In this document: in pieces, positions 23,493 through 44,389 of the stretch | Layout: each line of letters starts with the position of its first letter | Numbering within the stretch: the stretch's first letter is position 1 | From: a virus | Taxonomy: Duplodnaviria > Caudoviricetes | Length of the DNA: 64,000 bases | Virus record (IMG/VR): IMGVR_UViG_2840619991_000006 | Coordinates: 1-64,000 of that record | Direction: 5' to 3' (one strand) | Notes under the pieces: model-generated | Databases searched by the model: none | Told to the model about the DNA's origin: nothing | What the model saw: only the letters and a program-made list of their open reading frames with translations | Translations under genes and position numbers: made by a program

Positions 23493-24929
23493 CTACTCGC
23501 CGCGGTCGAGATTTGAGAACAGGGTGCGGGGGCCGTCGAAGAAGACCTTCACGGTGCCGATGGGGCCGTCCCGGTTCTTCTCGATGATGATCTCGGCAAC
23601 GTTCCGAGCCTCCTCACTGCGCTTGCACCAGCGTTCGTATCGCTCGTTGTACTTCTCCTCCGTCTCATCGGCCCGTTTCGCCGGCTCCTCCCGCGCCAAG
23701 TAGTATTCGTCGCGGTACAGGAACATGATGACGTCGCCGTCCTGCTCGATGGAGCCGGATTGCCGGAGATCCGCCATGTTTGGCCGCTTATCCTCCCGCC
23801 GTTCCAGGTCGCGGTTGAGCTGGCAGAGCAGCAGGACCGGGACGCCGAACTCCTTCCAGATCGAGCAGAGGGCGGAGGTGATCTCCGTGATCTTCGCCGT
23901 CTCGCCTTGGTCCTCCGCTCGCTTGCTGGCGCGCATGCGGTGAAGGTGGTCAACGATGATCAGGCCAAGCCCATGGCGTCGCTTGTGGCGGCGGGCTACC
24001 CGGCGGATGTGCGGGACGGTGACGCCGGGTGTGTCGTCGATATGCAGAGGCAGGGTGCCCAAAGCCTGCTGGGCGTCCATCAATGCAAGCCATTCACCTT
24101 CAGAAAAATCCCCCTGCGTCTGGCGGTCGGACGAGATCCCGGTTTCTGCAGCAAGGTGGCGACGAGACACCTTCTCGGTCGCCATCTCCGTGGAGAAGGC
24201 CAGCACAGAGTGCCCAGCCTTGGCGGCGGCCAGCATGATGGTGTTCAATCCGAGACCGGACTTGCCCATCGAGGGACGGGCACCGAGAACGTAAAGACCG
24301 GGGAGGAGGCCTCCGAGCTTGCGGTCGAGGTCGACGAGCCCTGTCGTCACGCCCAGCACCTGCCCCTTGTTCTTCCAGGCCCGCTCGTTGGCCTCCATAG
24401 CCGCCGCAACGCCATCGGCGGACGACATGACGGGGCGCAGCGCGGAACCGTGGTCGCCAAGGGCGAAGAGTTGCGATTCCGCCTCCTCGATCAGCTTGCC
24501 TGCGCGCATGTCGGGGTCGGGCTGGTAGCCCGTGTTCACCAAATCGAAGCCGACCTCGATCAGTTGCCGACGAAGGAAAGTGTCCCGAATGATCTCGCCG
24601 TAGTCCCGGGCGTTGACCACCGTGACGACATTGGCCACCAAGCGGACGAGATAGGCGGCTCCACCCCCATCCCCGGCCAGATCGGCATCGCTGGCGAAAC
24701 GATCACGGAGGGTCACCGGATCGGCCTTCCGGCCGGCCTCGACCTCTTCGGAGATCGCCGCGAAAATCCTTTGGTGCGCCGGATCGTAGAAATGCTCAGG
24801 CCGAAGGAACTCGCTGACCTTCTCATAGGCCTTGTTGTTGATCAGGATGGCGCCGAGCAGCGCCTGTTCCGCCTCCTCGTTGTGGGGCGGGGTCCGCTCG
24901 ATGTGACCGGGGTTGCCGATGTGGTTCAT
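23493..24929 (-). CDS. dnaB: replicative DNA helicase
   Basis: PPHNEEAEQALLGA, GARPSMGKS, IIVDHL, QLNR, DLRQSGSIEQD, KNRDGP. Confidence 0.95.
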   Translation of the reverse strand: MNHIGNPGHIERTPPHNEEAEQALLGAILINNKAYEKVSEFLRPEHFYDPAHQRIFAAISEEVEAGRKADPVTLRDRFASDADLAGDGGGAAYLVRLVANVVTVVNARDYGEIIRDTFLRRQLIEVGFDLVNTGYQPDPDMRAGKLIEEAESQLFALGDHGSALRPVMSSADGVAAAMEANERAWKNKGQVLGVTTGLVDLDRKLGGLLPGLYVLGARPSMGKSGLGLNTIMLAAAKAGHSVLAFSTEMATEKVSRRHLAAETGISSDRQTQGDFSEGEWLALMDAQQALGTLPLHIDDTPGVTVPHIRRVARRHKRRHGLGLIIVDHLHRMRASKRAEDQGETAKITEITSALCSIWKEFGVPVLLLCQLNRDLERREDKRPNMADLRQSGSIEQDGDVIMFLYRDEYYLAREEPAKRADETEEKYNERYERWCKRSEEARNVAEIIIEKNRDGPIGTVKVFFDGPRTLFSNLDRGE

Positions 24930-25177
24930 TTCAGTGGTTCCCCGAAAAACGTGTTCAGACGGTCGTTGATGACGCGCTGCGCATCGGTGATCTGTTCCGC
25001 CGCCCACCCCAGGGCGGCGCGGTAGGCGCGCTCCGCCTCCAGAAGATCGTCGCGCGTCTTGCGGCAGGGGCTGGCGTCATGCGCCCGCACCGCGGCGGAG
25101 CGCATCTCCAGGAGGCATTCCGCTTCGGTCATGCCCTCCGTGACGACGATCAGGTGCTGTGCGGCCATGATGCTCAT
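24926..25177 (-). CDS. hypothetical protein
   Basis: Coupled ORF. Confidence 0.5.
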   Translation of the reverse strand: MSIMAAQHLIVVTEGMTEAECLLEMRSAAVRAHDASPCRKTRDDLLEAERAYRAALGWAAEQITDAQRVINDRLNTFFGEPLK

Positions 25178-31108: not shown

Positions 31109-32272
31109 TTACTCCGCCGGGGCCATGAAAGCGTCGGCGGCGCCATTGCTGGCCATCGCCGGCATCAGCACGTCCGCGTCATCGTCTTCCGGCAGGTCCG
31201 GCAGTTCGTCGCCGTCGTCCGCATCGGCGAAAACCACCTCCCCGCTCTCTCCCGGCGCCTCGGCGGCGGCCGGACCGGCTTCGTCGAACAGGGCGTTGTC
31301 CTGCCCCTCCCAGCCGGCCAGCCACGCATCGGCCTTGGCGCTGCCGGCGGGATGCGGGCAGGCGGACTGCGGCTCGCCGGCTTCGCAGGCGGTGGCCCCT
31401 TCCGCCTCCAGCGCCTGGACTTCCTCGGCGCTCAGGGCCTGCTCGGACGGTTGACCACCGCCCTCGCCGGCTTGCTCCGCGGCGCGCTCGGCGGCACGGG
31501 CCGCGTTCTGGGCGTCCTGTTCGGTCGCCCAGCCCTTCATGACGATGCCGGCCTTCACCGGATCGTCGCCGTAGGCGTGCGCGCCCGGCGCCTTGCCTTC
31601 GCGGAACAGCTTGATGCCCTCCGCGAGGAGAGCCGTGTGCTCGTCCTGCGACATGCCCTCGGGAAGTTCGGAGCCGGCCACCGCGCCGGCGCCGGATGCC
31701 GGCTGACCACCCTCCGCCGCCGCCTTGATTGCGGCGTCCATGGCGTCCCACGCCTGTTCGAAGATCGCGACGGACTCCACTCCGGTAAGCAGGCAGTCGG
31801 AGCGCTTCTCGCCGTTGCGGCGGGCTTCGCAGCCCTTGGCCCAGGCGCCGAGCTTGCGCTTCTTGCCCTCGAAATCAGCCGGCGGGTTGGGGTTCGGAAT
31901 GGCGGAGAGGTCCGGCCCGATGACCGCTTCCATCGCGCCCGCGACAGCTTCGGCGTCCGGCATCTCATCGAACAGCGCTTGCTGCCGGGCCACGTTGAGC
32001 TGAAGCGCCGGGATCAGGTGAAGAAGCTGCTGCGCCTCGATGGTCGCTTCGGGATCGTCGTTCCGCTTCCTCGCAAACAGCCGCGCCAGCGCCTTGAACA
32101 CGGGCTTGCGAACACCGGTCTTCGCAGCGTCGCGAATCACCTCCGCCTTCTTGGAATTGGCGGCGGCGGCTTGGGATTCCCGCTCAAGCAGCTGGTCCAT
32201 CGCCCGCTCAAGGTCGGACGGGGAAATGCTCGACGGGTCGATGGCAGGTTTCTCGTTCAGCTTGCGGGCCAT
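31109..32272 (-). CDS. GapR-like N-terminus + three Rmf-like repeats + acidic tail
   Basis: KAEVIRDAAKTGVRKPVFKAL; repeats such as EGATACEAGEPQSACPH...AWLAGW. Confidence 0.5.
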   Translation of the reverse strand: MARKLNEKPAIDPSSISPSDLERAMDQLLERESQAAAANSKKAEVIRDAAKTGVRKPVFKALARLFARKRNDDPEATIEAQQLLHLIPALQLNVARQQALFDEMPDAEAVAGAMEAVIGPDLSAIPNPNPPADFEGKKRKLGAWAKGCEARRNGEKRSDCLLTGVESVAIFEQAWDAMDAAIKAAAEGGQPASGAGAVAGSELPEGMSQDEHTALLAEGIKLFREGKAPGAHAYGDDPVKAGIVMKGWATEQDAQNAARAAERAAEQAGEGGGQPSEQALSAEEVQALEAEGATACEAGEPQSACPHPAGSAKADAWLAGWEGQDNALFDEAGPAAAEAPGESGEVVFADADDGDELPDLPEDDDADVLMPAMASNGAADAFMAPAE

Positions 32273-33319: not shown

Positions 33320-33550
33320 TCAGGCCCCCGCCGCGAGGGTCAGCAGAAACGCAAGCCAGAGAGCGAGGAGACCGGCGAGCAGCGGCAGGATGGGTCCGGC
33401 GCTACCACGCGAGGAGTACCGCCCCACCCCGCATGCGCGCGTGACATGCCTCCCGCCTTCGAGGCACTCTTGACATGGTTCCAAATACTTGAAATCCGTC
33501 TTCAAGTTGTGCGCTGCCAGGATCTTGCTTGTGATGAAGCCCATGGTCAT
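33320..33550 (-). CDS. small protein with C-terminal TM helix
   Basis: CxxC motif and hydrophobic C-terminus. Confidence 0.35.
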   Translation of the reverse strand: MTMGFITSKILAAHNLKTDFKYLEPCQECLEGGRHVTRACGVGRYSSRGSAGPILPLLAGLLALWLAFLLTLAAGA

Positions 33551-33608
33551 GGGTCACCTACTGCAATCAGATCAGCCGCGATACGGCACACCTCTTCTGT
33601 TTCGGTGA

Positions 33609-33884
33609 TCACTCGCCCCCTCCCTCTTGCTCAGGGGCGGACGGCAAAGAAAGCTTGGATGAGACTTCCTGTTCATCCAGGGCTTTGCTTTCCTGGAGCA
33701 GTTCGAAAAAGTCGTTTGGGGTCACCTCTCCTTTGGACGCGCAAAAGATGCGCGTCATCGCCGTCCAGCCCGGCTTGACCAGACCTCGGCGATACCGGCT
33801 GATCGCGGACTTATGGAGTCCTGCTTCTTGACCGAACTGCTCGTCAGTCAGGCCCCGGTTTTTTATGTGAGAAGAGAGATTCAT
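33609..33884 (-). CDS. cro: Cro-like HTH regulator
   Basis: GLTDEQFG..AGLHKSAISRY..G..KP...GEVTPNDFF; divergent from the repressor. Confidence 0.75.
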   Translation of the reverse strand: MNLSSHIKNRGLTDEQFGQEAGLHKSAISRYRRGLVKPGWTAMTRIFCASKGEVTPNDFFELLQESKALDEQEVSSKLSLPSAPEQEGGGE

Positions 33885-33893
33885 GTCCGTCAC

Positions 33894-33970
33894 GTTGCCA
33901 TCATTGCAACATGAGTTCAAGCCCGAAGTTGCCAAAGCTTCAACTGACGCGAAGTTGCAGCCATGGCAAC
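33894..33970. promoter_or_regulatory. three 17-bp operators (OR-like)
   Basis: GTTGCCATCATTGCAAC 33894-33910, GTTGCCAAAGCTTCAAC 33928-33944, GTTGCAGCCATGGCAAC 33954-33970. Confidence 0.85.
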
Positions 33971-33978
33971 TTGTTGCA

Positions 33979-34356
33979 ATGAGTGACGAACAGCAAATAG
34001 CAGGCGCACGTCTCAAGGCGCTGCGCGAGGCCAAGGGATGGTCTCAAGAAAAGCTCGCCCAGGAAAGTGGGTTGGGCGACAAGACCCTTATGAGCAAAAT
34101 GGAACGTGGGCTAATTCGCCTCAACGATATAAAGCTGAGGCGTCTATCACAGGCTCTTGGATGTACCCCTGGAGATCTTCTCGCAGACGAGTCATACGAA
34201 CCAGCGCCACCGCATAAGGATGAAGACGAGGCTCTTTTCAACGAAGCTCGTCAGGTAATGTCAGACACTGAGTTAGATGACGTTCGCAGATACCTTCGAA
34301 TGCGAATTGAAATTGCCCGCGCACGACAATCATCACCGCCATCAAGAAAGTCCTGA
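33979..34356 (+). CDS. cI: CI-like XRE repressor lacking an S24 peptidase domain
   Basis: RLKALREAKGWSQEKLA...SKMERG; 125 aa with a short helical C-terminus. Confidence 0.8.
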   Translation: MSDEQQIAGARLKALREAKGWSQEKLAQESGLGDKTLMSKMERGLIRLNDIKLRRLSQALGCTPGDLLADESYEPAPPHKDEDEALFNEARQVMSDTELDDVRRYLRMRIEIARARQSSPPSRKS

Positions 34357-34466
34357 ATATAATCAAGCACCAAGATTCGATCTTCACCCGATAGCGCTCG
34401 AAACATATCTAGCATTTCATCTTGATTTGCGCAGGCGATCTCCTCGTTCTTAAGCTCGCTCACCAT
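34251..34466 (-). CDS. small ORF resembling an XRE C-terminal helix pair, overlapping cI antisense
   Basis: AAGGAG RBS just upstream of the ATG; EMLDMFRALSGEDRILVLDYI. Confidence 0.55.
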   Translation of the reverse strand: MVSELKNEEIACANQDEMLDMFRALSGEDRILVLDYIQDFLDGGDDCRARAISIRIRRYLRTSSNSVSDIT

Positions 34467-34614
34467 GCGGTCTCCTTATGACGCGGTCCCCGTGCGTGTC
34501 ATGGTTGGCCACCCTCAGGATAAAATGGCGAACGTGGGGATCATAACCAAGTAGAGGGACACAAACGCTTCTCAGGCAGTCGCCCCAGCCGCCGAAGCGA
34601 CCGGGGCGCGGCGA

Positions 34615-35064
34615 TCAGGCTGCCAGCGGCTGGATGACCAACCAGCAACCGTCATTCGCTGCAAGCAGACCTTCTGCGATGGCTTCTTCGTAGGACGGAA
34701 GGTGGCGGCCAGCGTTGGCAAAGGCCGAGCGGGTGTTCTCCCACGCCTCCACGGCCTCTGGGCCGCTGGTGGCTGGGAACGGGTCGTGGACGATCACATT
34801 GCCAGCGCCGTAGAGTTCGGCACCGATCTTCAGCGCGCTGCGGGTGTCGAGGAGCACGGTGTGCAGCGCCACGTCAGCTAGATTCGGGACCGCGTACCTG
34901 CGGCCATGCTCATGGGCTTGGGCGTCGCCCAAGATAACCTTGACCTGTTGGAACGCCTCGTCGCGCTCCGCCTCGGTGTGGCCGAAGCGGCTCACCATCG
35001 CATGCTCATAACGGCTGAAATCAATCTCTGTGACGTTCGCGTAACCCATTCTGTCGATCCTCAT
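34615..35064 (-). CDS. GRDP/DUF1399-like protein (degenerate P..D..H..LDT motif)
   Basis: AVPNLADVALHTVLLDTR...IVHDP; likely start 35049 with GAGGA RBS; hairpin at 34578-34614 downstream. Confidence 0.45.
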   Translation of the reverse strand: MRIDRMGYANVTEIDFSRYEHAMVSRFGHTEAERDEAFQQVKVILGDAQAHEHGRRYAVPNLADVALHTVLLDTRSALKIGAELYGAGNVIVHDPFPATSGPEAVEAWENTRSAFANAGRHLPSYEEAIAEGLLAANDGCWLVIQPLAA

Positions 35065-36286
35065 GATTTGCGCGTGATTGCGCGGGACATCGCTGCGATT
35101 TTTCCTACCAGCTTAGAAATTGCCGAGAGATCGTCAGCAGCGAAATCTTTCTGGCGCAGGCGGGCTTTCATCCCATCCTTCCCGTTGATTTGGTTGTAGA
35201 CGGTCCGTGGCGAGCTTCCCCGGATCTCACCGATGACCTCCGGAGACAAGCCGGCCCCAATCAGCGCAGCAACGTGGGCCTGCGCATCCGGCAAACCGAA
35301 AGCGGTCCGCAGGCTTGCAGCGACCGATTCAACGTCATCACCAAATCGGGCAACGACAAGGATCACCGTTCGCTCAAGCTCACCAGGAGCTATGGCCATC
35401 AGCAAGGGTTCGCCGCGAAGGCGTCGCAGGAAGACCGTTTGCGGCGCCCGGCTCCTTGCGACCGCGGCGATCGCCATCCGTAGTTCCTGCTCACCTTCGC
35501 TCATGATGGCTGTGACGTGTCCGGTCTCGTCCAGGCACACCCCGTCCCCCCGATCAGCGCATCACCGAAGCTGGAGTTGCCGTGGATCAGGACGCCGTCA
35601 TCGCGGCACAATGCGACAGCGAGGTCCAACGCATCGAGAGCTGAGCTGAGCCCGACCAACGCGCGGCGGAGCTTCGCAATCTCGAACAGATCCTCGCGAG
35701 TATCGACCGGTGGAAGGTATTGCTCGACAGCCAGGGATGGCAGGCCGACGCGGACCTGGACGCACGTTCCATCCGAGAGGCATAGATTCGATACCGCCAT
35801 GCGGCCGTGCTGGTAATCGCCGACCCACTGCAAACGCTCTCTTGCCCGCCGCTCTATCGTCTTACGCGCAAGATACGATACCGGGTCCCGATTGATTTCA
35901 GCGCTGGCCATCGCACCAGAATTCAGCACGCTCCAGAAAAGTGACGCATAAGTTTCCTTCAGATAATCTGAACATGGAAACATCCGAACCTGCGCTGTAT
36001 TCGCCCATGCTACTGCATCCTCTGGGGAATATACGAGAACAGCACCGCCAAATTCCTCAGCAGTGCTTATCATCACTGTCGCGGATGGCGGGAGACCGAT
36101 GGGGAACGCGTCTGGCATGTCGTAACAATCATGCTGACTGGAGGCACAAAAGGAACGGTACGGCAGAGCATCGATATCGGCATGGTCAATTTTACACATG
36201 CCAGAGGGGTCAGAGCTTTTTCTGTAAAGATTGGATCGCCCGATGCACATACTGGAATATGATAAGGCCGCCGAACGCAGATGCAT
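35061..36286 (-). CDS. PAS-PAS-LuxR HTH regulator split by a frameshift in a C6 run (35546-35551)
   Basis: N part is PAS_7-like; C part has LRTAFGLPDAQAHVAALIGAGLSPEVIG.IRG.S.RTV LuxR HTH; one extra G restores ...LIGGDGVCLD... Confidence 0.7.
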
Positions 36287-36328: not shown

Positions 36329-37273
36329 TCAAGCAGTAGCGGTTTCCCGGTGCGAAGCCCTTCCCTTCGCTGCTGAACCTGACTTCTCTGCAAAAGAGAG
36401 ATAGGTCGCGCTTGCAACGATCAATGCTGCACCAATCAGGTCTGCGCCGGTCATTTCCTTCCCGAACACTAACCATCCAACGATGGCTGTTGCCGGAAGG
36501 GTAAGATAATCAAAGCAAGACACGTAAGGCAGTGGTGCAGCAGCCAGCGCCTTCGCCGTTGCGATCTGCGATCCTGCGGCAAGAATTCCGACTGCAATCA
36601 GTCCAGCCAGGACCCAGCCCCCGATTTCGAACGGCACCCAAGCTCCGTAAGCAAGCGGCGCCATGCCGAGCGCCGAGGCGGCCATAAATACAAGAACGAT
36701 CAGGTGGGCTGGATTTGTCGACGTGAGCCGGCGTACGGCTGCCAGCGACACGGCGGAGAGCATAGCCCCTGCCAAGGCAGCGATGATGCCCAGGTCGAGC
36801 CCAACAGACAACGCCGGATAAACCGTTACGATGACGCCGATCAGCCCAGCCACCACGGCGGACCAGACCCGCCAAGACGCCCTCTCACCCAACAGCATCA
36901 TAGCGGCGCCCTGCATAAACAGGACTCGGCTCATCACGATCAGGTTGATAAGCGCAAGGTGTTGTCCGCTGGTCCAGGCGTAGAGGATGCAATAGCCCGC
37001 CAGCAGCCCGGTTCCGCACCGGATCGAAAACCACATCAGATTATTGATCTGACGCAGCTCAGCCAGGATGCTTCGACCGGAGAAAATGATGCCCACCGCA
37101 AGGGCGCCAAGCGCTCCGACCGAGCGGAAGAAGCCCAGTTGCTCAGCGGTAAGCCCATGGCTTGAAAGATACTTGGCGACCGCTCCACCAAAGGTGAACA
37201 GGAAGGCGGAATAGATCGCCCAAGCTGCTGCGTTTGGACGTTTAAAAAATGAAGGAAGCATGCTGCGCCTCAA
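36329..37273 (-). CDS. DMT/EamA family transporter
   Basis: About 10 TM helices, QLGFFR, LLGER, GWLVFG.E. Confidence 0.88.
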   Translation of the reverse strand: MRRSMLPSFFKRPNAAAWAIYSAFLFTFGGAVAKYLSSHGLTAEQLGFFRSVGALGALAVGIIFSGRSILAELRQINNLMWFSIRCGTGLLAGYCILYAWTSGQHLALINLIVMSRVLFMQGAAMMLLGERASWRVWSAVVAGLIGVIVTVYPALSVGLDLGIIAALAGAMLSAVSLAAVRRLTSTNPAHLIVLVFMAASALGMAPLAYGAWVPFEIGGWVLAGLIAVGILAAGSQIATAKALAAAPLPYVSCFDYLTLPATAIVGWLVFGKEMTGADLIGAALIVASATYLSFAEKSGSAAKGRASHRETATA

Positions 37274-37294: not shown

Positions 37295-38005
37295 CTAAAG
37301 ATGATCGAGAATTTTTCTCCTCCTATCTTCGTATTCTTCTTTTGTTATAACCTTTCGTTCAAACATATCTTTCAGAGTTGATAAACGTGTTGCAGTGTTG
37401 GTAGGCGCGCTGGTCGTAGGCTTCGTTTGCGGATTTGGCTTTGGTGATTGCAGCTCTCCCACACGCGGGTCGTAGATTGAGTTTATGAACGGCACCAAAA
37501 CACTATTATCGCCTGGCCTCGCCATCGCCTGAAACAACTGAAGGCATTTATTTTCCATGTACATTTTTCCTAAGACATTGAATTTTCCGAACGCACTATC
37601 GGAGCGGCCACCATATTCAAGAATTTTTCGATTATTATCTGCATAGAAGTTATGACTTGTCATTACCCACTCGTCACCCCTATTAGATTGTTTCATAATC
37701 TCTAAAGCGATACTCTCTGTTGCCTTACCTAAGTCAAAGTTGTTTCCACAGAAGCAAGCTATCGCTCTTTGCTCATCAGCCGAAACTTGCTTAACCGCAT
37801 ATGCATTAATGCCTGAACTTGATACGCGGCCAGGGTCATTGATAATGTCTACAGGCCCATTTATCTGCGCACGCATCCGGCAATCTGCGGGAAACTTCTC
37901 CATTGCTTCAGATGCATCGATGTGCGACTTAGTAGTTTGACATGCCCCCAAGAGCACCAAAACCATAGAAGCCGCAAGCCGCGTGATTAGGATTAATTTT
38001 CTCAT
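37295..38005 (-). CDS. lipoprotein with C-terminal SHOCT domain
   Basis: Signal peptide + LGAC lipobox; RLSTLKDMFERKVITKEEYEDRRRKIL; low GC. Confidence 0.75.
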   Translation of the reverse strand: MRKLILITRLAASMVLVLLGACQTTKSHIDASEAMEKFPADCRMRAQINGPVDIINDPGRVSSSGINAYAVKQVSADEQRAIACFCGNNFDLGKATESIALEIMKQSNRGDEWVMTSHNFYADNNRKILEYGGRSDSAFGKFNVLGKMYMENKCLQLFQAMARPGDNSVLVPFINSIYDPRVGELQSPKPNPQTKPTTSAPTNTATRLSTLKDMFERKVITKEEYEDRRRKILDHL

Positions 38006-38778
38006 TACAAATCCTCCAAAATTTTCCGACGCCTATCTTCATATTCTTTTTGAGAAACCAGATTGCGTTCTCGAAGATCCTTCAGCGTGGCTAAGCGCGC
38101 CTCAACTGAACTCCCCATTGTTACCAATGGCGCGCCTGCTGATTGCGGCCTCGAAACGGATAAGGCGGTAAGTTTTGGGTCGTCCAAGGCTTGGTCAATG
38201 GCGGCTTGCATACTATCGTTTATGATTTTCCTCAAGCCATCGACTTGCGAAACAAAGCTACCATCTTCCACACGATTATCCTCATAGACCTGAGAATACA
38301 ATTGCTGCCCTGTTGATTTATCGATTGCTTTTACATTAAACCTTGTATGCCCCTCACGGCGCATGAGTTGGTTTGAGTCCAATCGTTCAATGCTTACAAC
38401 AAGACCAATATACGCAACGTCAGTTTTTGCCAGCAATCCACGAGATTTTAATCCCTCGATGAATGCTTGTCGCACCATGTCATTTACCGGAGTTTTCGTT
38501 TCAAGTATCCAAAACGGGTTTCCATATCCCCCGCGAACAGTCCCAATTTTATTGGATGGATTCTTTCGAGCGTCGGTTACCGTTGATATTTCGACCATTG
38601 GAATAGCGCCGGTGGCGGCAATGGTTTGAGCAGCGGGCCGATACGTCAGGTCAGTCGGCGTCGTCCCGCATCCTGGTAAGCAAATAGCTACCGCACTTAA
38701 TACAAGCGCGCCGATTCCACTTTGCACTGAGAGCCCGCTTCGCACCGGCCTTCCATTCGACGAAAGTAGATGCCTCAT
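38005..38778 (-). CDS. YajG-like lipoprotein with C-terminal SHOCT domain
   Basis: LPGC lipobox, VTDAR..IG.VRGGYG, RLATLKDLRERNLVSQKEYEDRRRKIL; start uncertain. Confidence 0.7.
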   Translation of the reverse strand: MRHLLSSNGRPVRSGLSVQSGIGALVLSAVAICLPGCGTTPTDLTYRPAAQTIAATGAIPMVEISTVTDARKNPSNKIGTVRGGYGNPFWILETKTPVNDMVRQAFIEGLKSRGLLAKTDVAYIGLVVSIERLDSNQLMRREGHTRFNVKAIDKSTGQQLYSQVYEDNRVEDGSFVSQVDGLRKIINDSMQAAIDQALDDPKLTALSVSRPQSAGAPLVTMGSSVEARLATLKDLRERNLVSQKEYEDRRRKILEDL

Positions 38779-38919
38779 CTTAAACAGCAAGAAGGGCCTA
38801 AGCCGCTGATGGCCGGCATCTCCAAAAACGGGCATTCTTCCTCCAGCGCATACAATAATATGCATTCATGATATCCAACACCACCATGGCGACTGTGACA
38901 CACACCCGCCGAGGCATCA

Positions 38920-38971
38920 GTTGCCAATTTTGCAACTTTCCACTTGACGCGCTGGTTGCCATCATGGCAAC
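38920..38971. promoter_or_regulatory. two 17-bp operators (OL-like) around a TTGACG -35 box
   Basis: GTTGCCAATTTTGCAAC 38920-38936, GTTGCCATCATGGCAAC 38955-38971, TTGACG at 38944. Confidence 0.85.
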
Positions 38972-39140
38972 GTCCGTTATGTACCCCGCACGGTAGCGGT
39001 TCACACCACCACCCAAGGGGTACGCGCTTCCACGCTCCTTCGAGCGTTGGGCGTTTCCTCCTCAGACTGTGCCCGCCGGTCGAGCCGGTCGGCGGGCACC
39101 TTCTCAGGGCGGAGCGCAGAATCCGGAAGAGGACACCGCC

Positions 39141-42120: not shown

Positions 42121-43856
42121 TGGCCGACTTCCGCCCGAACCGCGACCGCACCGACCTCCCCGCCGACGCCGAACGCTGCGCCACCATCTGCGCGCGCTTC
42201 CACCGCGGCATCGCCGCGAACTGCTTCGCGCGTGGCCTGACGCATGTCGGTCGCCGTCACGAACAGATCGCTGACCGGCTGGTCGCCCTCCGGAAGCCCA
42301 CCTCGATCACCATCCTCACCGCGCCGACGGCCGAGACCAAGAAGCGGAGGGCCGCATGATCGCCCTGCCTTTCTGCTCCGGCTTCAAGATCGGCGACCGC
42401 GTCAAACACGCCAGCGAGCTCGTCACGCTGCCGGCGGCGCAGATCGACCGGCTCAGCCCCTGCAGCAACGGCGTCGTCTTCGCCGAGACGTCGAGCTGGA
42501 GCGCTCCGGTGGATCGCATCCGCTTGGCCGGGCCGGGCTTCGCCGGGATGGTCAACGGTGGCGCCGCCGCCCTTCCGGTCGGAGGTGCCGCGTGACCAAG
42601 AAGCTGAACGAGCCGGAAATCTACTTCGTCGGCCAGAACGAGGTCGGCCCCCGGCACCCGACCGCCGGGTTCTACGTCGCGCCGCTCACCGCGGCGGGGC
42701 GTGCCGAAGGACCTTTCGCCAGCCGTGACCGGGCGGAAGAGTTCGCGCGAGGCCGGTCCATGGATCTGAGGGTGGCGTGATGGTTTCCCAGGACGCCATC
42801 GCCACCACGACCGCCATCGGCGCCGCTCTGCGCCAGCATGCGGACCGGGACGGCTACGTGCCGGTCGCCGCGCTGCGAGAACGGTTCCCGGTCGAGGTGC
42901 TGGCCGCTCATCTGCTGCCGGCTCTGGCACAGGTGAACCGGCACCGCGAAGCGGTGGGAGGCTGAACACTATGGCCGCGCGCTTCCGCTTCTACGCCGAC
43001 TTCACCGACAAGTGGGGCGAACTCCAGACCATCAACGTGCTGGCGGATTCGGCTGAAGATGCGGTGCGCCGCCTGCGCTGGGATGCCGGCAATTTCGCCA
43101 AGAATTTCAAGTTCCGCCCGGATTGGGACCTGATCGTCTTTGACGACGGGACGCTGATGCTCCGGACGGAGTGGGAACAGTTCAGGCGCCGGCAGGAAAT
43201 GCCGGCTGCCGCTGCGGAGTGAACCAGATGCCCAAACCTCCCTCCCCGGCGCAACTCGCCGCCCAGGTCGAGACCTGGAACAGCCAGAACCCTGTCGGCA
43301 CCAAGGTGGTCGTCCGCTGTGACGACGGCACCAGCCACATCACCGTCACGACCAGCGAGGCGTGGGTGCTGAGCGGCCACAGCGCCGTCATCCTGCTCAA
43401 GGGCATCTCCGGTTGTTACCTGCTGAATCGGGTGACCGCGATCAGCGCCGACCACACGGTGGAGCCCTGACCGCAATGGCCGCCACCTCCCAACACCACC
43501 ACGCCACGGTCTTCGAAAACCGCATCAACGGCAACGTCGTCGCCTCCGCCCAGGTGGTGATCTCCTTCAGCTACGCCGCCCTGCCCTCCCCTGCCGGAGC
43601 ACCCCTCGGCGGTACCGTGACGTTCCTCGGCGCGGACATCGTCTGCGGCCCCGGCACGTCGATCCGGAAGACCCGTCCGGCCCCACCTCACATCGATATG
43701 TGGGCCAAGCGCTACACCGCGGCGAACGCCGCCATCCTCATCGCCGAAGCGACGGCTGACCACGTGCCGCAGCAGTGCGGCGCCGGCCCTCAGAAGCTGC
43801 CGGTCGCTTCTCCCCACACCATCCCCTCCCCTGCCCTTCTCCAACACGGAGCCTGA
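42117..43856 (+). other. run of about 7 small coupled hypothetical phage genes (42117, 42356, 42592, 42777, 42971, 43228, 43476)
   Basis: ATGA/GTGA overlaps and GGAG RBSs. Confidence 0.55.
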
Positions 43857-43861
43857 ATCCC

Positions 43862-44389
43862 ATGAACGCCATCTCCCGCCGCCTTTCCGCCGTATCGCCC
43901 CCCTGCACCAGCATGAGCGTGCCCAAGCGCGGCCGCCGCGCCACCGGGCGCCCGCTGCACAGCGAGGCCCCGAACCCCGTCGATATCCATGTCGGCGCCC
44001 GCGTCCGGCTGCGTCGCACCCTGCTCGGCATGTCGCAGGAGAAGTTGGGCGACGCCCTCCGCCTGACCTTCCAGCAGGTACAGAAGTACGAGCGCGGCGC
44101 CAACCGCATCAGCGCCAGCCGGCTGTTCGACCTTAGCCGCGTCCTGGACGTGCCGATCTCCTTCTTCTTCGACGACATGTCGGAGGCGACCATGGCGGCG
44201 GCGCCGGCGGAGGAGGTGTGCGCCTCCGGCATCGAAGCCGCCGAGCCGGACCCGATGGCCAAGCGGGAAACGCTGGAGCTGGTGCGCGCCTATTACCGCA
44301 TCCCCGATGCCGCGGTGCGCAAGCGCCTCTTCGAAATGACCAAGGTGCTGGGCAAGACCGGCGGCGACCAGTCCGGCGCCGAGGCCTGA
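43862..44389 (+). CDS. XRE-family regulator (alphaproteobacterial PNPVDIHVG type)
   Basis: DIHVGARVRLRR..LGMSQEKLG...QQVQKYERGANRISASRL. Confidence 0.9.
   Translation: MNAISRRLSAVSPPCTSMSVPKRGRRATGRPLHSEAPNPVDIHVGARVRLRRTLLGMSQEKLGDALRLTFQQVQKYERGANRISASRLFDLSRVLDVPISFFFDDMSEATMAAAPAEEVCASGIEAAEPDPMAKRETLELVRAYYRIPDAAVRKRLFEMTKVLGKTGGDQSGAEA

What the first reader, a model, noticed from the sequence alone, without database searches (positions are those of the whole stretch)
34251..34466. Small ORF mimicking the repressor C-terminal domain, antisense to cI
Seen: strong AAGGAG RBS. Its EMLDMFRALSGEDRILVLDYI parallels the cI tail EALFNEARQVMSDTELDDVRRYL but has no HTH, and it overlaps the cI 3' end by about 106 nt on the opposite strand. 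Known: Bacillus SinI inactivates SinR by mimicking its oligomerisation domain. Inference: a dominant-negative antirepressor, possibly with added antisense interference.
Basis: partly seen in the sequence, partly recalled or inferred. Interest (0 to 1): 0.7.

Follow-up and report, generated by a model that had tools for sequence, protein, structure and literature searches.

The report
Small convergent gene beside phage repressor
A 71-codon gene that runs head-on into the end of a prophage repressor gene looks like a real small-protein gene and sits where Bacillus phages keep a small antirepressor, but it does not resemble the repressor's tail in sequence and its function is untested.

Summary
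The ORF (34251-34466, minus), its AAGGAG ribosome site and the 106-nt antisense overlap with the repressor gene (cI, 33979-34356) are all real. It is probably a true coding gene. Its non-overlapping core uses codons like the neighbouring genes (only 3 of 735 control windows score as high). Site, ATG and an ORF of 60 or more codons together are expected 0.03 times per random island. The only relative found keeps the same 71-codon frame beside an 84%-identical cI, and its upstream 88 nt are better conserved than either gene.

The claimed likeness to the cI tail is at chance level: 77% of shuffles score as well. The only detectable match (IRRYLR/VRRYLR) is one stretch of DNA read on both strands. 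The overlap length is also unremarkable (48% of synonymous recodings of cI give 71 codons or more).

The layout matches the published AimX-AimC-AimL module of Bacillus arbitrium phages, but with no AimR/AimP and no sequence homology. It comprises a short non-cleavable HTH repressor, a divergent cro-like gene, and a small, fast-diverging helical ORF converging on the repressor's 3' end. A LuxR/GerE-like regulator gene lies upstream.

Relatives are almost absent.

The parts
34251..34466 (-). Small ORF of 71 codons plus TGA. Residues 1-46 are acidic (net charge -10) and residues 47-71 basic (net +5). Predicted helices are 2-13, 17-24, 27-42 and 47-67.
   Evidence: AF2 mean pLDDT 69.7
34357..34466 (-). 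Non-overlapping core of the small ORF (codons 1-36 and part of 37). Its codon usage is typical of the island's genes.
   Evidence: +10.6 bits in frame, the other five frames -9.8 to -1.3. 3 of 735 non-coding-frame control windows reach it.
34251..34356 (.). 106-nt stretch coding on both strands: cI residues 91-125 plus stop on the plus strand, small-ORF residues 37-71 plus stop on the minus strand. Third codon positions coincide.
   Evidence: 25 of 26 residues (46-71) are identical in the relative
34472..34477 (-). AAGGAG ribosome-binding site, 5 nt before the ATG
34467..34543 (-). Upstream region conserved in the relative. Over 34456-34543 there are 5 differences and 1 gap in 88 nt. Presumed promoter or leader. 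It contains an ATGAC-N15-GTCAT inverted repeat just before the ribosome site.
   Evidence: table 8. No consensus promoter was called.
33979..34356 (+). cI-like repressor of 125 aa. It has an XRE-type HTH (about residues 3-68), a low-confidence linker (70-80) and a two-helix tail (80-93, 96-118). There is no autocleavage domain.
33894..33970 (.). Three 17-bp operators GTTGC-N7-GCAAC at 33894-33910, 33928-33944 (1 mismatch) and 33954-33970, between cI and the cro-like gene
33609..33884 (-). Cro-like small HTH gene, divergent from cI. It heads the leftward early operon, which includes a DnaB-type helicase at 23493-25007.
38920..38971 (.). Second pair of perfect operators (38920-38936, 38955-38971) at the far end of the low-GC island, before the rightward genes
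34581..34608 (-). GC-rich 12-13-bp hairpin with a TTCG loop, just after the 149-aa gene. It separates that gene from the small ORF's upstream region.
   Evidence: I2; -32.7 kcal/mol, z -1.97, 9 of 200 shuffles fold as well
34615..35064 (-). 149-aa gene of unknown family, start overlapping the previous gene's stop
35061..35504 (-). 147-aa gene with a probable LuxR/GerE-type HTH, a candidate regulator
   Evidence: 24 of 30 Atlas hits fall in the GerE set, best 0.95 with 206 shared features. Pfam itself gives no hit. Start at residue 13 of the listed ORF.
35501..36286 (-). 261-aa gene of unknown family, its stop overlapping the start of the 147-aa gene

Best explanation
The ORF is a real gene for a small, mostly helical protein that belongs to the cro-cI immunity cassette of this prophage. 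It most likely acts as a non-proteolytic antirepressor. When made, its acidic helical core (about residues 15-45) would bind the repressor, most plausibly the two-helix C-terminal tail that should hold the repressor dimer or oligomer together. That would take cI off its GTTGC-N7-GCAAC operators and open the cro-side early operon and the second operator-controlled promoter. The repressor has no autocleavage domain, so some such outside input is needed for induction. Expression would come from the conserved ~80 nt upstream of the ORF, possibly under the LuxR/GerE-like regulator encoded two genes upstream. Because the two genes converge and overlap, transcription of one may also hinder the other in cis. 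What is shown: the ORF, its ribosome site, its coding-like codon usage, its linkage with cI in a relative, and the layout. What is inferred: translation, binding, the target surface, the regulator and the antisense effect.
For: Real gene: the SD, ATG and an ORF of 60 or more codons together are expected 0.034 times per random island. The codon-usage score of the non-overlapping core is +10.6 bits, against -9.8 to -1.3 in the other five frames. It is exceeded by 3 of 735 non-coding-frame windows and is typical of in-frame windows (mean 7.1). The single relative, P0001, is also 71 aa with the same start, and sits on the same 8228-nt contig as an 84%-identical cI. In run X2 the stretch 34343-34456 is 'same length, diverged' with no indel. 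The start, SD and upstream 34456-34543 show 5 differences plus 1 gap in 88 nt, against 81 in 593 nt for cro/cI and 107 in 777 nt for the next genes. Tie to cI: the ORF's GC (GC3 0.43) is like cI's (0.48) and unlike the 149-aa gene's (0.76). Need for an antirepressor: cI has an HTH only. The whole 116-kb record has no Peptidase_M78 and no ANT domain, and its one S24 protein is a UmuD-like gene next to a Y-family polymerase. Precedent: in Kabel et al. 2025 (bioRxiv 10.1101/2025.11.23.689978; abstract, passages and sections 5, 9, 10 read), AimC repressors are 80-140 aa with one HTH and no autocleavage domain. aimL is a divergent cro-like gene before replication genes. AimX ORFs are 29-80 aa, helical, convergent on aimC and sometimes overlapping it, and diverge faster than AimC. 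They bind its C-terminal oligomerisation domain. Here cI is 125 aa with an HTH, a linker and a two-helix tail. The ORF is 72% identical to its relative against 84% for cI. The cro-side operon holds a DnaB helicase. A GerE-like regulator gene lies upstream in the same direction, as AimR does for aimX and as the TFs do in the TF-smORF modules of Silpe et al. 2023 (PMC10432266, passages).
Against: There is no direct evidence of translation, binding or derepression. The ORF core shows no sequence likeness to the cI tail, and neither protein has homology to any known antirepressor or SinI-type family. Amino-acid divergence of the core from the relative (20 of 38 identical in residues 4-41, needing at least 27 nucleotide changes in 114) is about what neutral drift at 25% nucleotide divergence gives. 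An open frame would survive such drift in 33-44% of simulations. Conservation in one relative is therefore only weak proof of selection on the protein. The cI tail is 100% identical over 39 residues between the two phages while the ORF core changed at 19 of 45 positions, which is odd for a tight partner pair. No promoter, terminator, cI operator or GTTC-N7-GTTC SOS box was found at the ORF. The regulator candidate is co-directional and two genes away, with a hairpin between, not adjacent and divergent. Only one related locus exists, so there is no comparative statistics.
Confidence: 0.4

Rival explanations
1. It is a real small protein with a role unrelated to cI, for example an accessory or moron product, an anti-defence or exclusion factor, or a small regulator of something else. 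It would simply be the last gene of the minus-strand low-GC island, and its run into the cI gene would be an accident of where the first stop falls.
For: It lies at the end of a 4.6-kb minus-strand island that carries accessory-looking genes: an EamA-type transporter and two lipoprotein-like genes. The overlap length is chance-compatible, with 47.8% of synonymous redraws giving 71 or more codons. There is no likeness to the cI tail. There is no operator or SOS box. The protein is an orphan with no family.
Against: Its base composition groups it with cI/cro and not with the neighbouring island genes. It has its own strong ribosome site and a conserved upstream stretch set off by a hairpin from the gene before. 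The layout equals a proven antirepressor layout. The repressor otherwise has no visible induction route in the record.
Confidence: 0.33
2. The frame is not translated, or its product does not matter. What functions is the transcript or the act of transcription. This could be an antisense RNA against the 3' end of the cI message, in the manner of lambda OOP RNA against cII (recalled), or convergent-transcription interference. It could also be that nothing functions and the ORF is a leftover.
For: There are 106 nt of perfect antisense overlap. The core's amino-acid divergence is close to the neutral expectation, and frame survival by chance is 33-44%. The best conserved part is the upstream and start region rather than the coding core. 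The inverted repeat before the ribosome site pairs better on the plus (cI-sense) strand, with 9 pairs using a G-U. This hints that the conserved stretch could serve the cI 3' end.
Against: Codon usage in the ORF frame is strongly coding-like, and only in that frame. There is a consensus AAGGAG at ideal spacing. There is no indel over 112 diverged nt. No promoter or terminator bounds a short RNA, and the folds of the leader are not better than shuffles (z -0.13 and +0.34). In the Bacillus precedent the protein carried the effect, not the antisense RNA: recoded and stop alleles were tested.
Confidence: 0.15
3. One reading: the ORF is a SinI-type mimic that copies the repressor's own oligomerisation hairpin, through shared descent or convergent sequence likeness, and so forms dead heterodimers.
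For: Both are predicted as short helix, serine cap, long helix. The best, non-significant Foldseek row for the cI model is SinR from the SinR-SinI complex: 1b0n_A, E 0.059, 106 columns, TM 0.26-0.30.
Against: Alignment scores are at or below shuffled means. hhalign probability is 3%. No SinI-type Pfam family hits either protein at E up to 1. The ORF model finds no SinI or AimX chain.
Confidence: 0.05

Closest known systems
AimX-AimC-AimL ('extended arbitrium') module of Bacillus phages (Kabel et al. 2025, bioRxiv 10.1101/2025.11.23.689978; PDB 9sf2 'Phage Phi106 repressor in complex with AimX' seen as a listing)
   Same: A short single-HTH repressor without an autocleavage domain (80-140 aa there, 125 aa here), built as HTH, linker and helical C-terminal domain. 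A divergent cro-like gene before replication genes. A small ORF (29-80 aa there, 71 here) in the opposite direction, converging on and overlapping the repressor's 3' end (30 bp in phi106, 106 nt here). The small ORF is mostly helical and diverges faster than the repressor. A regulator gene lies upstream in the same direction as the small ORF.
   Different: There is no AimR receptor or AimP peptide gene. Upstream are a GerE/LuxR-like gene and two genes of unknown family. No LexA box was found. There is no sequence homology to AimC or AimX: 9sf2_A is only rank 30, E 0.56. The element is a high-GC provirus whose umuD-like gene carries a GTTC-N7-GTTC box, a type I recall from Alphaproteobacteria, not a Bacillus phage. 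Function here is untested.
TF-smORF induction modules of linear plasmid-like vibriophages and Aeromonas phages, including VqmA-Qtip of VP882 (Silpe et al. 2023, PMC10432266, passages read)
   Same: An orphan small protein (51-79 aa) without homologues or domains inactivates cI without proteolysis. Its expression is set by a neighbouring transcription factor, in some cases a LuxR-type one. This gives an SOS-independent route to induction.
   Different: There the TF and smORF are adjacent and divergent and lie away from cI (repA-telN or par loci), and the cI studied is autoproteolytic. Here the candidate TF is co-directional and two genes upstream, the ORF abuts and overlaps cI, and cI is not cleavable.
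SinI-SinR of Bacillus subtilis (as described in the discussion passage of Kabel et al.; PDB 1b0n listing)
   Same: A small helical antagonist is proposed to engage the helical oligomerisation tail of an XRE-type HTH repressor.
   Different: SinI and the SinR tail are recognisably similar to each other. Here the ORF and the cI tail are not. No SinI-type Pfam domain is present. The genes converge and overlap, an arrangement I do not recall for sinI-sinR.
Lambda OOP antisense RNA against the 3' end of cII; P22 sar against ant (both recalled, no call)
   Same: A transcript antisense to the 3' part of a lysis-lysogeny regulator gene.
   Different: Those are short non-coding RNAs with their own promoter and terminator. 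Here there is a coding-like ORF with a strong ribosome site, and no RNA ends are defined.

Membership tests
AimX-AimC-AimL extended arbitrium module | Short (80-140 aa) single-HTH repressor without an autocleavage domain | tested here: met
   125 aa, HTH_3/HTH_31 only. The only S24 match in the record lies elsewhere, at 66 kb.
AimX-AimC-AimL extended arbitrium module | Divergent small HTH (cro-like) gene next to the repressor, followed by replication genes | tested here: met
   33609-33884(-) matches HTH_3 at E 1.6e-4, 22.1 bits against a cut-off of 23. A DnaB helicase lies downstream. Operators lie between the two genes.
AimX-AimC-AimL extended arbitrium module | Small ORF (29-80 aa) convergent on the repressor, sometimes overlapping it, diverging faster than the repressor | tested here: met
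   71 aa with a 106-nt overlap. 72% identity to its relative against 84% for cI.
AimX-AimC-AimL extended arbitrium module | AimR receptor and AimP peptide genes directly upstream of the small ORF | tested here: not met
   The upstream genes of 149, 147 and 261 aa give no Pfam, PHROG or NCBIfam family. The 147-aa protein looks GerE-like. No secreted-peptide gene was seen.
AimX-AimC-AimL extended arbitrium module | Sequence or fold homology to AimC or AimX | tested here: inconclusive
   The cI model against 9sf2_A gives E 0.56 at rank 30. The ORF model gives no such row. Both models have modest confidence.
AimX-AimC-AimL extended arbitrium module | The small protein binds the repressor's C-terminal domain and blocks oligomerisation and DNA binding | not testable with these tools
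SinI-SinR type mimicry | The antagonist resembles the repressor's own oligomerisation domain in sequence | tested here: not met
   Score 19 against a shuffled mean of 21.7, with 77% of 5000 shuffles at least as high. hhalign probability 3%.
SinI-SinR type mimicry | SinI-type domain detectable in the antagonist and the repressor tail | tested here: not met
   The Pfam-A scan at E up to 1 lists no such family for either protein.
TF-smORF induction module (Silpe et al. 2023) | Orphan small ORF without homologues or predictable domains | tested here: met
   1 relative among 1.84 billion representatives. No family hit.
TF-smORF induction module (Silpe et al. 2023) | Adjacent, divergently transcribed transcription-factor gene that activates the smORF | tested here: not met
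   The candidate GerE-like gene is co-directional and two genes upstream, with a hairpin between. Activation is untestable.
cis-antisense RNA of the lambda OOP type | Short non-coding transcript with its own promoter and terminator, antisense to the regulator's 3' end | tested here: inconclusive
   The antisense overlap is present. No promoter was called and no terminator lies at the ORF. The frame is coding-like. No RNA run was available.

The most novel reading that the evidence does not exclude
The convergent, overlapping 'small antirepressor against a non-cleavable HTH repressor' design, known from Bacillus arbitrium phages, also exists outside the Firmicutes in a high-GC, probably alphaproteobacterial, prophage. 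There it would be built from unrelated sequences and wired to a LuxR/GerE-type regulator operon instead of AimR/AimP. If so, the design is a recurrent solution for SOS-independent induction. The 106 nt coding on both strands would physically lock the repressor's oligomerisation tail and the antirepressor's basic C-terminal helix into one co-inherited unit.
Probability: 0.25. Interest if true: 0.65.

Novelty: new variant of a known kind. Interest (0 to 1): 0.45.

Why it matters
How prophages with short, non-cleavable repressors are induced is unknown for most of them. Small orphan antirepressors have only recently been shown to do this in Vibrio and Aeromonas phages (TF-smORF) and Bacillus phages (AimX). 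If this locus works the same way, the convergent small-ORF layout would be a searchable signature across phyla for a class of genes that annotation pipelines miss. The neighbouring LuxR/GerE-like operon would then be a candidate sensory input for induction. If it does not, the locus is an ordinary orphan small gene at the edge of an accessory island.

Tried and rejected
Relatives:
- Viral-contig scans found nothing with the ORF, cI, a degenerate cI-tail pattern, the 149-aa protein or the 147-aa protein.
- Metagenome contigs found nothing with the ORF alignment or the cI-tail pattern.
- Genome contigs with cI gave only an unrelated XRE-cupin gene of Rhodovibrio sodomensis, 39% identical over the HTH.
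- tblastn against phages and plasmids gave no match.
- Relatives of a virus record cannot be drawn (error).
- The DNA of the one relative could not be fetched, so no dN/dS was computed. Only the laid-contig summary and the two proteins were available.

Expression: no RNA holder was listed.

Fold: Foldseek on the ORF model gave 14 rows, all at E of 5 or more. VIA wide gave a best Z of 6.2, generic helical matches only. The PDB sequence search gave 0 hits at E up to 10. The Atlas best score was 0.82, to unnamed small proteins, a lead only.

Regulation:
- No sigma-70-like promoter was called in 33400-35200, and none of the 4 terminator-like sites lies at the ORF.
- The operator pattern with up to 2 mismatches has 34 matches against 36.9 expected. 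Only the five perfect or near-perfect sites at 33.9 and 38.9 kb stand out, and none lies at the ORF.
- GTTC-N7-GTTC with up to 1 mismatch has 45 matches against 45.3 expected, none in 34467-34620.
- A possible terminator-like hairpin just past the ORF stop (34225-34252, I1) folds no better than shuffles (z -1.17).

I considered and rejected the idea that the ORF is the 3' remnant of a longer gene. An in-frame stop lies 4 codons (12 nt) before the ATG, and no HTH-like frame is seen upstream.

Full report
WHAT IS THERE

The window is part of a 116-kb record classed as a provirus. At 33.6-34.5 kb lies a lambda-like switch.
- A cro-like HTH gene lies at 33609-33884 on the minus strand. It heads a leftward operon that includes a DnaB-type helicase and a DNA methylase.
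- Three 17-bp palindromic operators GTTGC-N7-GCAAC lie at 33894, 33928 (1 mismatch) and 33954.
- A rightward XRE-type repressor gene follows. The ORF list starts it at 33883, but the relative's protein starts at the ATG at 33979, and the operators would otherwise be inside the gene. I therefore take cI as 33979-34356, 125 aa.
- Two more perfect operators lie at 38920 and 38955. They sit at the far side of a low-GC island (about 33.4-38.9 kb) that carries minus-strand genes.

The finding's ORF is exactly as described. It is 71 codons, 34251-34466 on the minus strand, with AAGGAG 5 nt before the ATG, and it overlaps the last 106 nt of cI including its stop.

IS IT A GENE?

Four lines of evidence say probably yes.
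- Ribosome site. AAGGAG-N4-9-ATG occurs 4 times in 64 kb (expected 1.93, and 14 of 100 shuffles reach 4). Two of these head clear genes of 225 and 387 codons, one is this ORF, and one is internal to a gene. A random island of this size and composition holds 0.279 such sites, and 0.034 followed by 60 or more open codons (2000 simulations).
- Codon usage. The model was trained on 1581 codons of the island's other genes, with the overlap left out. The 36 non-overlapping codons score +10.6 bits in the ORF frame and -9.8 to -1.3 in the other five frames. In-frame windows of real genes average 7.1 (113 of 147 are at or below 10.6). Only 3 of 735 out-of-frame or antisense windows reach 10.6.
- A relative. 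The only relative anywhere was 1 protein in the word-indexed search, and the same 1 protein at E up to 0.001 among 1.84 billion representatives read by HMMER. It is also 71 aa with the same start. It comes from the same 8228-nt contig as a cI that is 84% identical.
- Conserved upstream. A contig of run X2 encodes that cI variant. Its listed differences reproduce the substitutions in P0003. On this contig the stretch 34343-34456 is 'same length, diverged', with no indel. The stretch 34456-34543 (first codons, ATG, AAGGAG and 66 nt further) has 5 differences and 1 gap in 88 nt. That compares with 81 in 593 nt over cro/cI and 107 in 777 nt over the next two genes.

There are caveats. Over residues 4-41, 18 of 38 residues are replaced, needing at least 27 nucleotide changes in 114. 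Under neutral drift at 20-35% divergence the frame would stay open in 29-44% of simulations. Neutral drift at 25% gives 54% amino-acid identity, close to the 53% seen. One relative therefore cannot prove selection on the protein, and its DNA could not be obtained. No RNA run was listed (recorded under tried and rejected only).

THE OVERLAP

The third codon positions of the two frames coincide. With the cI protein fixed and its codons redrawn from local usage, the ORF frame runs 71 or more codons in 47.8% of 20000 redraws, and never fewer than 46. The overlap follows from where the ORF starts and needs no special explanation.

Residues 46-71 of the ORF are 25 of 26 identical in the relative. 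This mirrors the cI tail, which is identical over 39 consecutive residues (80-118). The one change, N65S, needs only a single base change. By my reading of the codons, that change leaves cI Leu99 unaltered.

THE CLAIMED MIMICRY

It is not supported by sequence.
- ORF 1-45 against cI 78-125 scores 19, against a shuffled mean of 21.7 (sd 4.3). 77% of 5000 shuffles do at least as well.
- hhalign gives 3% probability.
- BLASTP finds only IRRYLR against VRRYLR. These are encoded by the same nucleotides (34282-34301) on opposite strands, a curiosity of a near-palindromic stretch and not a sign of homology.

At the level of predicted architecture there is a loose likeness. The ORF model (mean pLDDT 69.7) has helices 2-13, 17-24, 27-42 and 47-67. 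The cI model (mean pLDDT 62) has the HTH, a low-confidence linker (70-80) and tail helices 80-93 and 96-118. Neither model finds a significant structural neighbour. The ORF gives nothing better than E 5 or Z 6.2. For cI the best row is SinR of the SinR-SinI complex at E 0.059 and TM 0.26-0.30, and the phi106 repressor-AimX entry 9sf2 is at rank 30, E 0.56. The ORF is bipartite in charge, with residues 1-46 at net -10 and residues 47-71 at net +5.

CONTEXT

cI has only an HTH. Weak, below-cut-off matches that extend into the tail are to CapH (PADLOC, E 4.3e-9, residues 4-107) and RstR (NCBIfam, E 1.1e-5, 25.7 bits against a cut-off of 80).

The whole record has no Peptidase_M78 (ImmA/IrrE-type) and no ANT domain. 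Its only S24 protein is a 146-aa UmuD-like gene next to a Y-family polymerase gene. That gene is preceded by GTTC-N7-GTTC, a box type I recall as the alphaproteobacterial SOS box. No such box lies before the small ORF, and no cI operator does either.

Upstream of the ORF on the same strand lies a run of three genes whose starts and stops overlap.
- 261 aa: no family.
- 147 aa: no Pfam hit, but 24 of 30 Atlas feature hits fall in the GerE/LuxR set, best 0.95.
- 149 aa: no family.

A 12-13-bp GC-rich hairpin with a TTCG loop follows (34581-34608, z -1.97), and then the conserved upstream stretch. The ORF's GC3 (0.43) matches cI (0.48) and not the 149-aa gene (0.76). Compositionally it belongs to the immunity cassette.

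COMPARISON WITH WHAT IS KNOWN

The closest documented system is the extended arbitrium module (Kabel et al. 2025, bioRxiv; abstract, passages and sections 5, 9, 10 read).
- AimC is a short (80-140 aa) HTH repressor without an autocleavage domain, with a linker and a helical C-terminal oligomerisation domain.
- aimL is a divergent cro-like gene before replication genes.
- AimX is a 29-80-aa, mostly helical protein encoded downstream of aimR-aimP, in the opposite direction to aimC. It sometimes overlaps aimC (30 bp in phi106) and is more divergent than AimC.
- In that work stop-codon and recoded alleles showed that the protein carries the effect, not the antisense RNA.

The present locus has the same geometry and the same relative rates (72% against 84% identity). 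It lacks AimR/AimP, shows no sequence homology, and comes from a different kind of host.

The TF-smORF modules of Silpe et al. 2023 (PMC10432266, passages) share the logic: an orphan small protein inactivates cI without proteolysis, under a neighbouring TF that is sometimes LuxR-type. They do not share the geometry. One literature search for antisense or convergent antirepressor arrangements (listing only) showed no equivalent case outside these.

VERDICT

The ORF, the ribosome site and the overlap are real, and the ORF is probably a gene. The likeness to the cI tail and the overlap length are chance-level.

I put about 0.8 on a real protein-coding gene and about 0.4 on an antirepressor of the adjacent cI. 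I put about 0.33 on an unrelated small protein, about 0.15 on an RNA-level role or none, and about 0.05 on true SinI-style sequence mimicry.

If the antirepressor reading holds, it would be a new variant of a known kind. It is of moderate interest as a possible non-Firmicute, non-arbitrium instance of the AimX design.

Noticed in passing
window 38920-38971: Two further perfect copies of the 17-bp operator GTTGC-N7-GCAAC lie 5 kb from the cI-cro set, just before the rightward genes that start near 39069. The repressor probably controls two promoter regions that flank a low-GC accessory island, as lambda OL and OR flank the cI-rex region.
   Followed up: partly
window 34282-34301: The same 20 nt encode VRRYLR in cI on the plus strand and IRRYLR in the small ORF on the minus strand. 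The DNA is a near-palindrome, which produced the only 'similarity' that BLASTP and hhalign report between the two proteins.
   Followed up: yes
window 34581-34608: A GC-rich hairpin of 12-13 bp with a TTCG tetraloop lies directly after the 149-aa gene, without a following T run (z -1.97). It may be a terminator or an RNA-stabilising element between that gene and the small ORF's upstream region.
   Followed up: partly
window 34478-34502: An inverted repeat ATGAC-N15-GTCAT lies immediately upstream of the AAGGAG. It pairs better on the plus strand (9 pairs with a G-U) than on the minus strand, so it might belong to the 3' end of the cI message rather than to the small ORF's leader.
   Followed up: partly
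window 35061-36286: The 261-aa and 147-aa genes overlap by ATGA, and the 147-aa product looks like a GerE/LuxR-type HTH by language-model features only. By eye, the end of the 261-aa product and the start of the 147-aa product look like parts of a sensor domain. A split or two-part regulator is possible.
   Followed up: partly
G000 66167-66508 (L003 1471-1911, minus) and L003 191-1465: A UmuD-like S24 protein (146 aa) and a Y-family polymerase gene (424 aa) are carried on the provirus record. A GTTC-N7-GTTC box, which I recall as the alphaproteobacterial SOS type, precedes them.
   Followed up: partly
window 37295-38865: Two adjacent lipoprotein-like genes (236 and 286 aa) end in nearly the same C-terminal motif (...KEEYEDRRRKIL...), by eye a SHOCT-like tail. 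Together with an EamA-type transporter gene (36329-37273), they lie in the low-GC island between the two operator regions.
   Followed up: no
window 31109-32272: A 387-aa early-operon protein has a stretch (residues 286-322) that matches the ribosome modulation factor family exactly at the Pfam cut-off (27.9 bits, E 2.5e-6).
   Followed up: no
window 43775-44389 and G000 90135-90278: Two more HTH_3 proteins are encoded in the record, a 204-aa one among the rightward genes and one at 90 kb. The 116-kb record may hold more than one regulatory module or more than one element.
   Followed up: no
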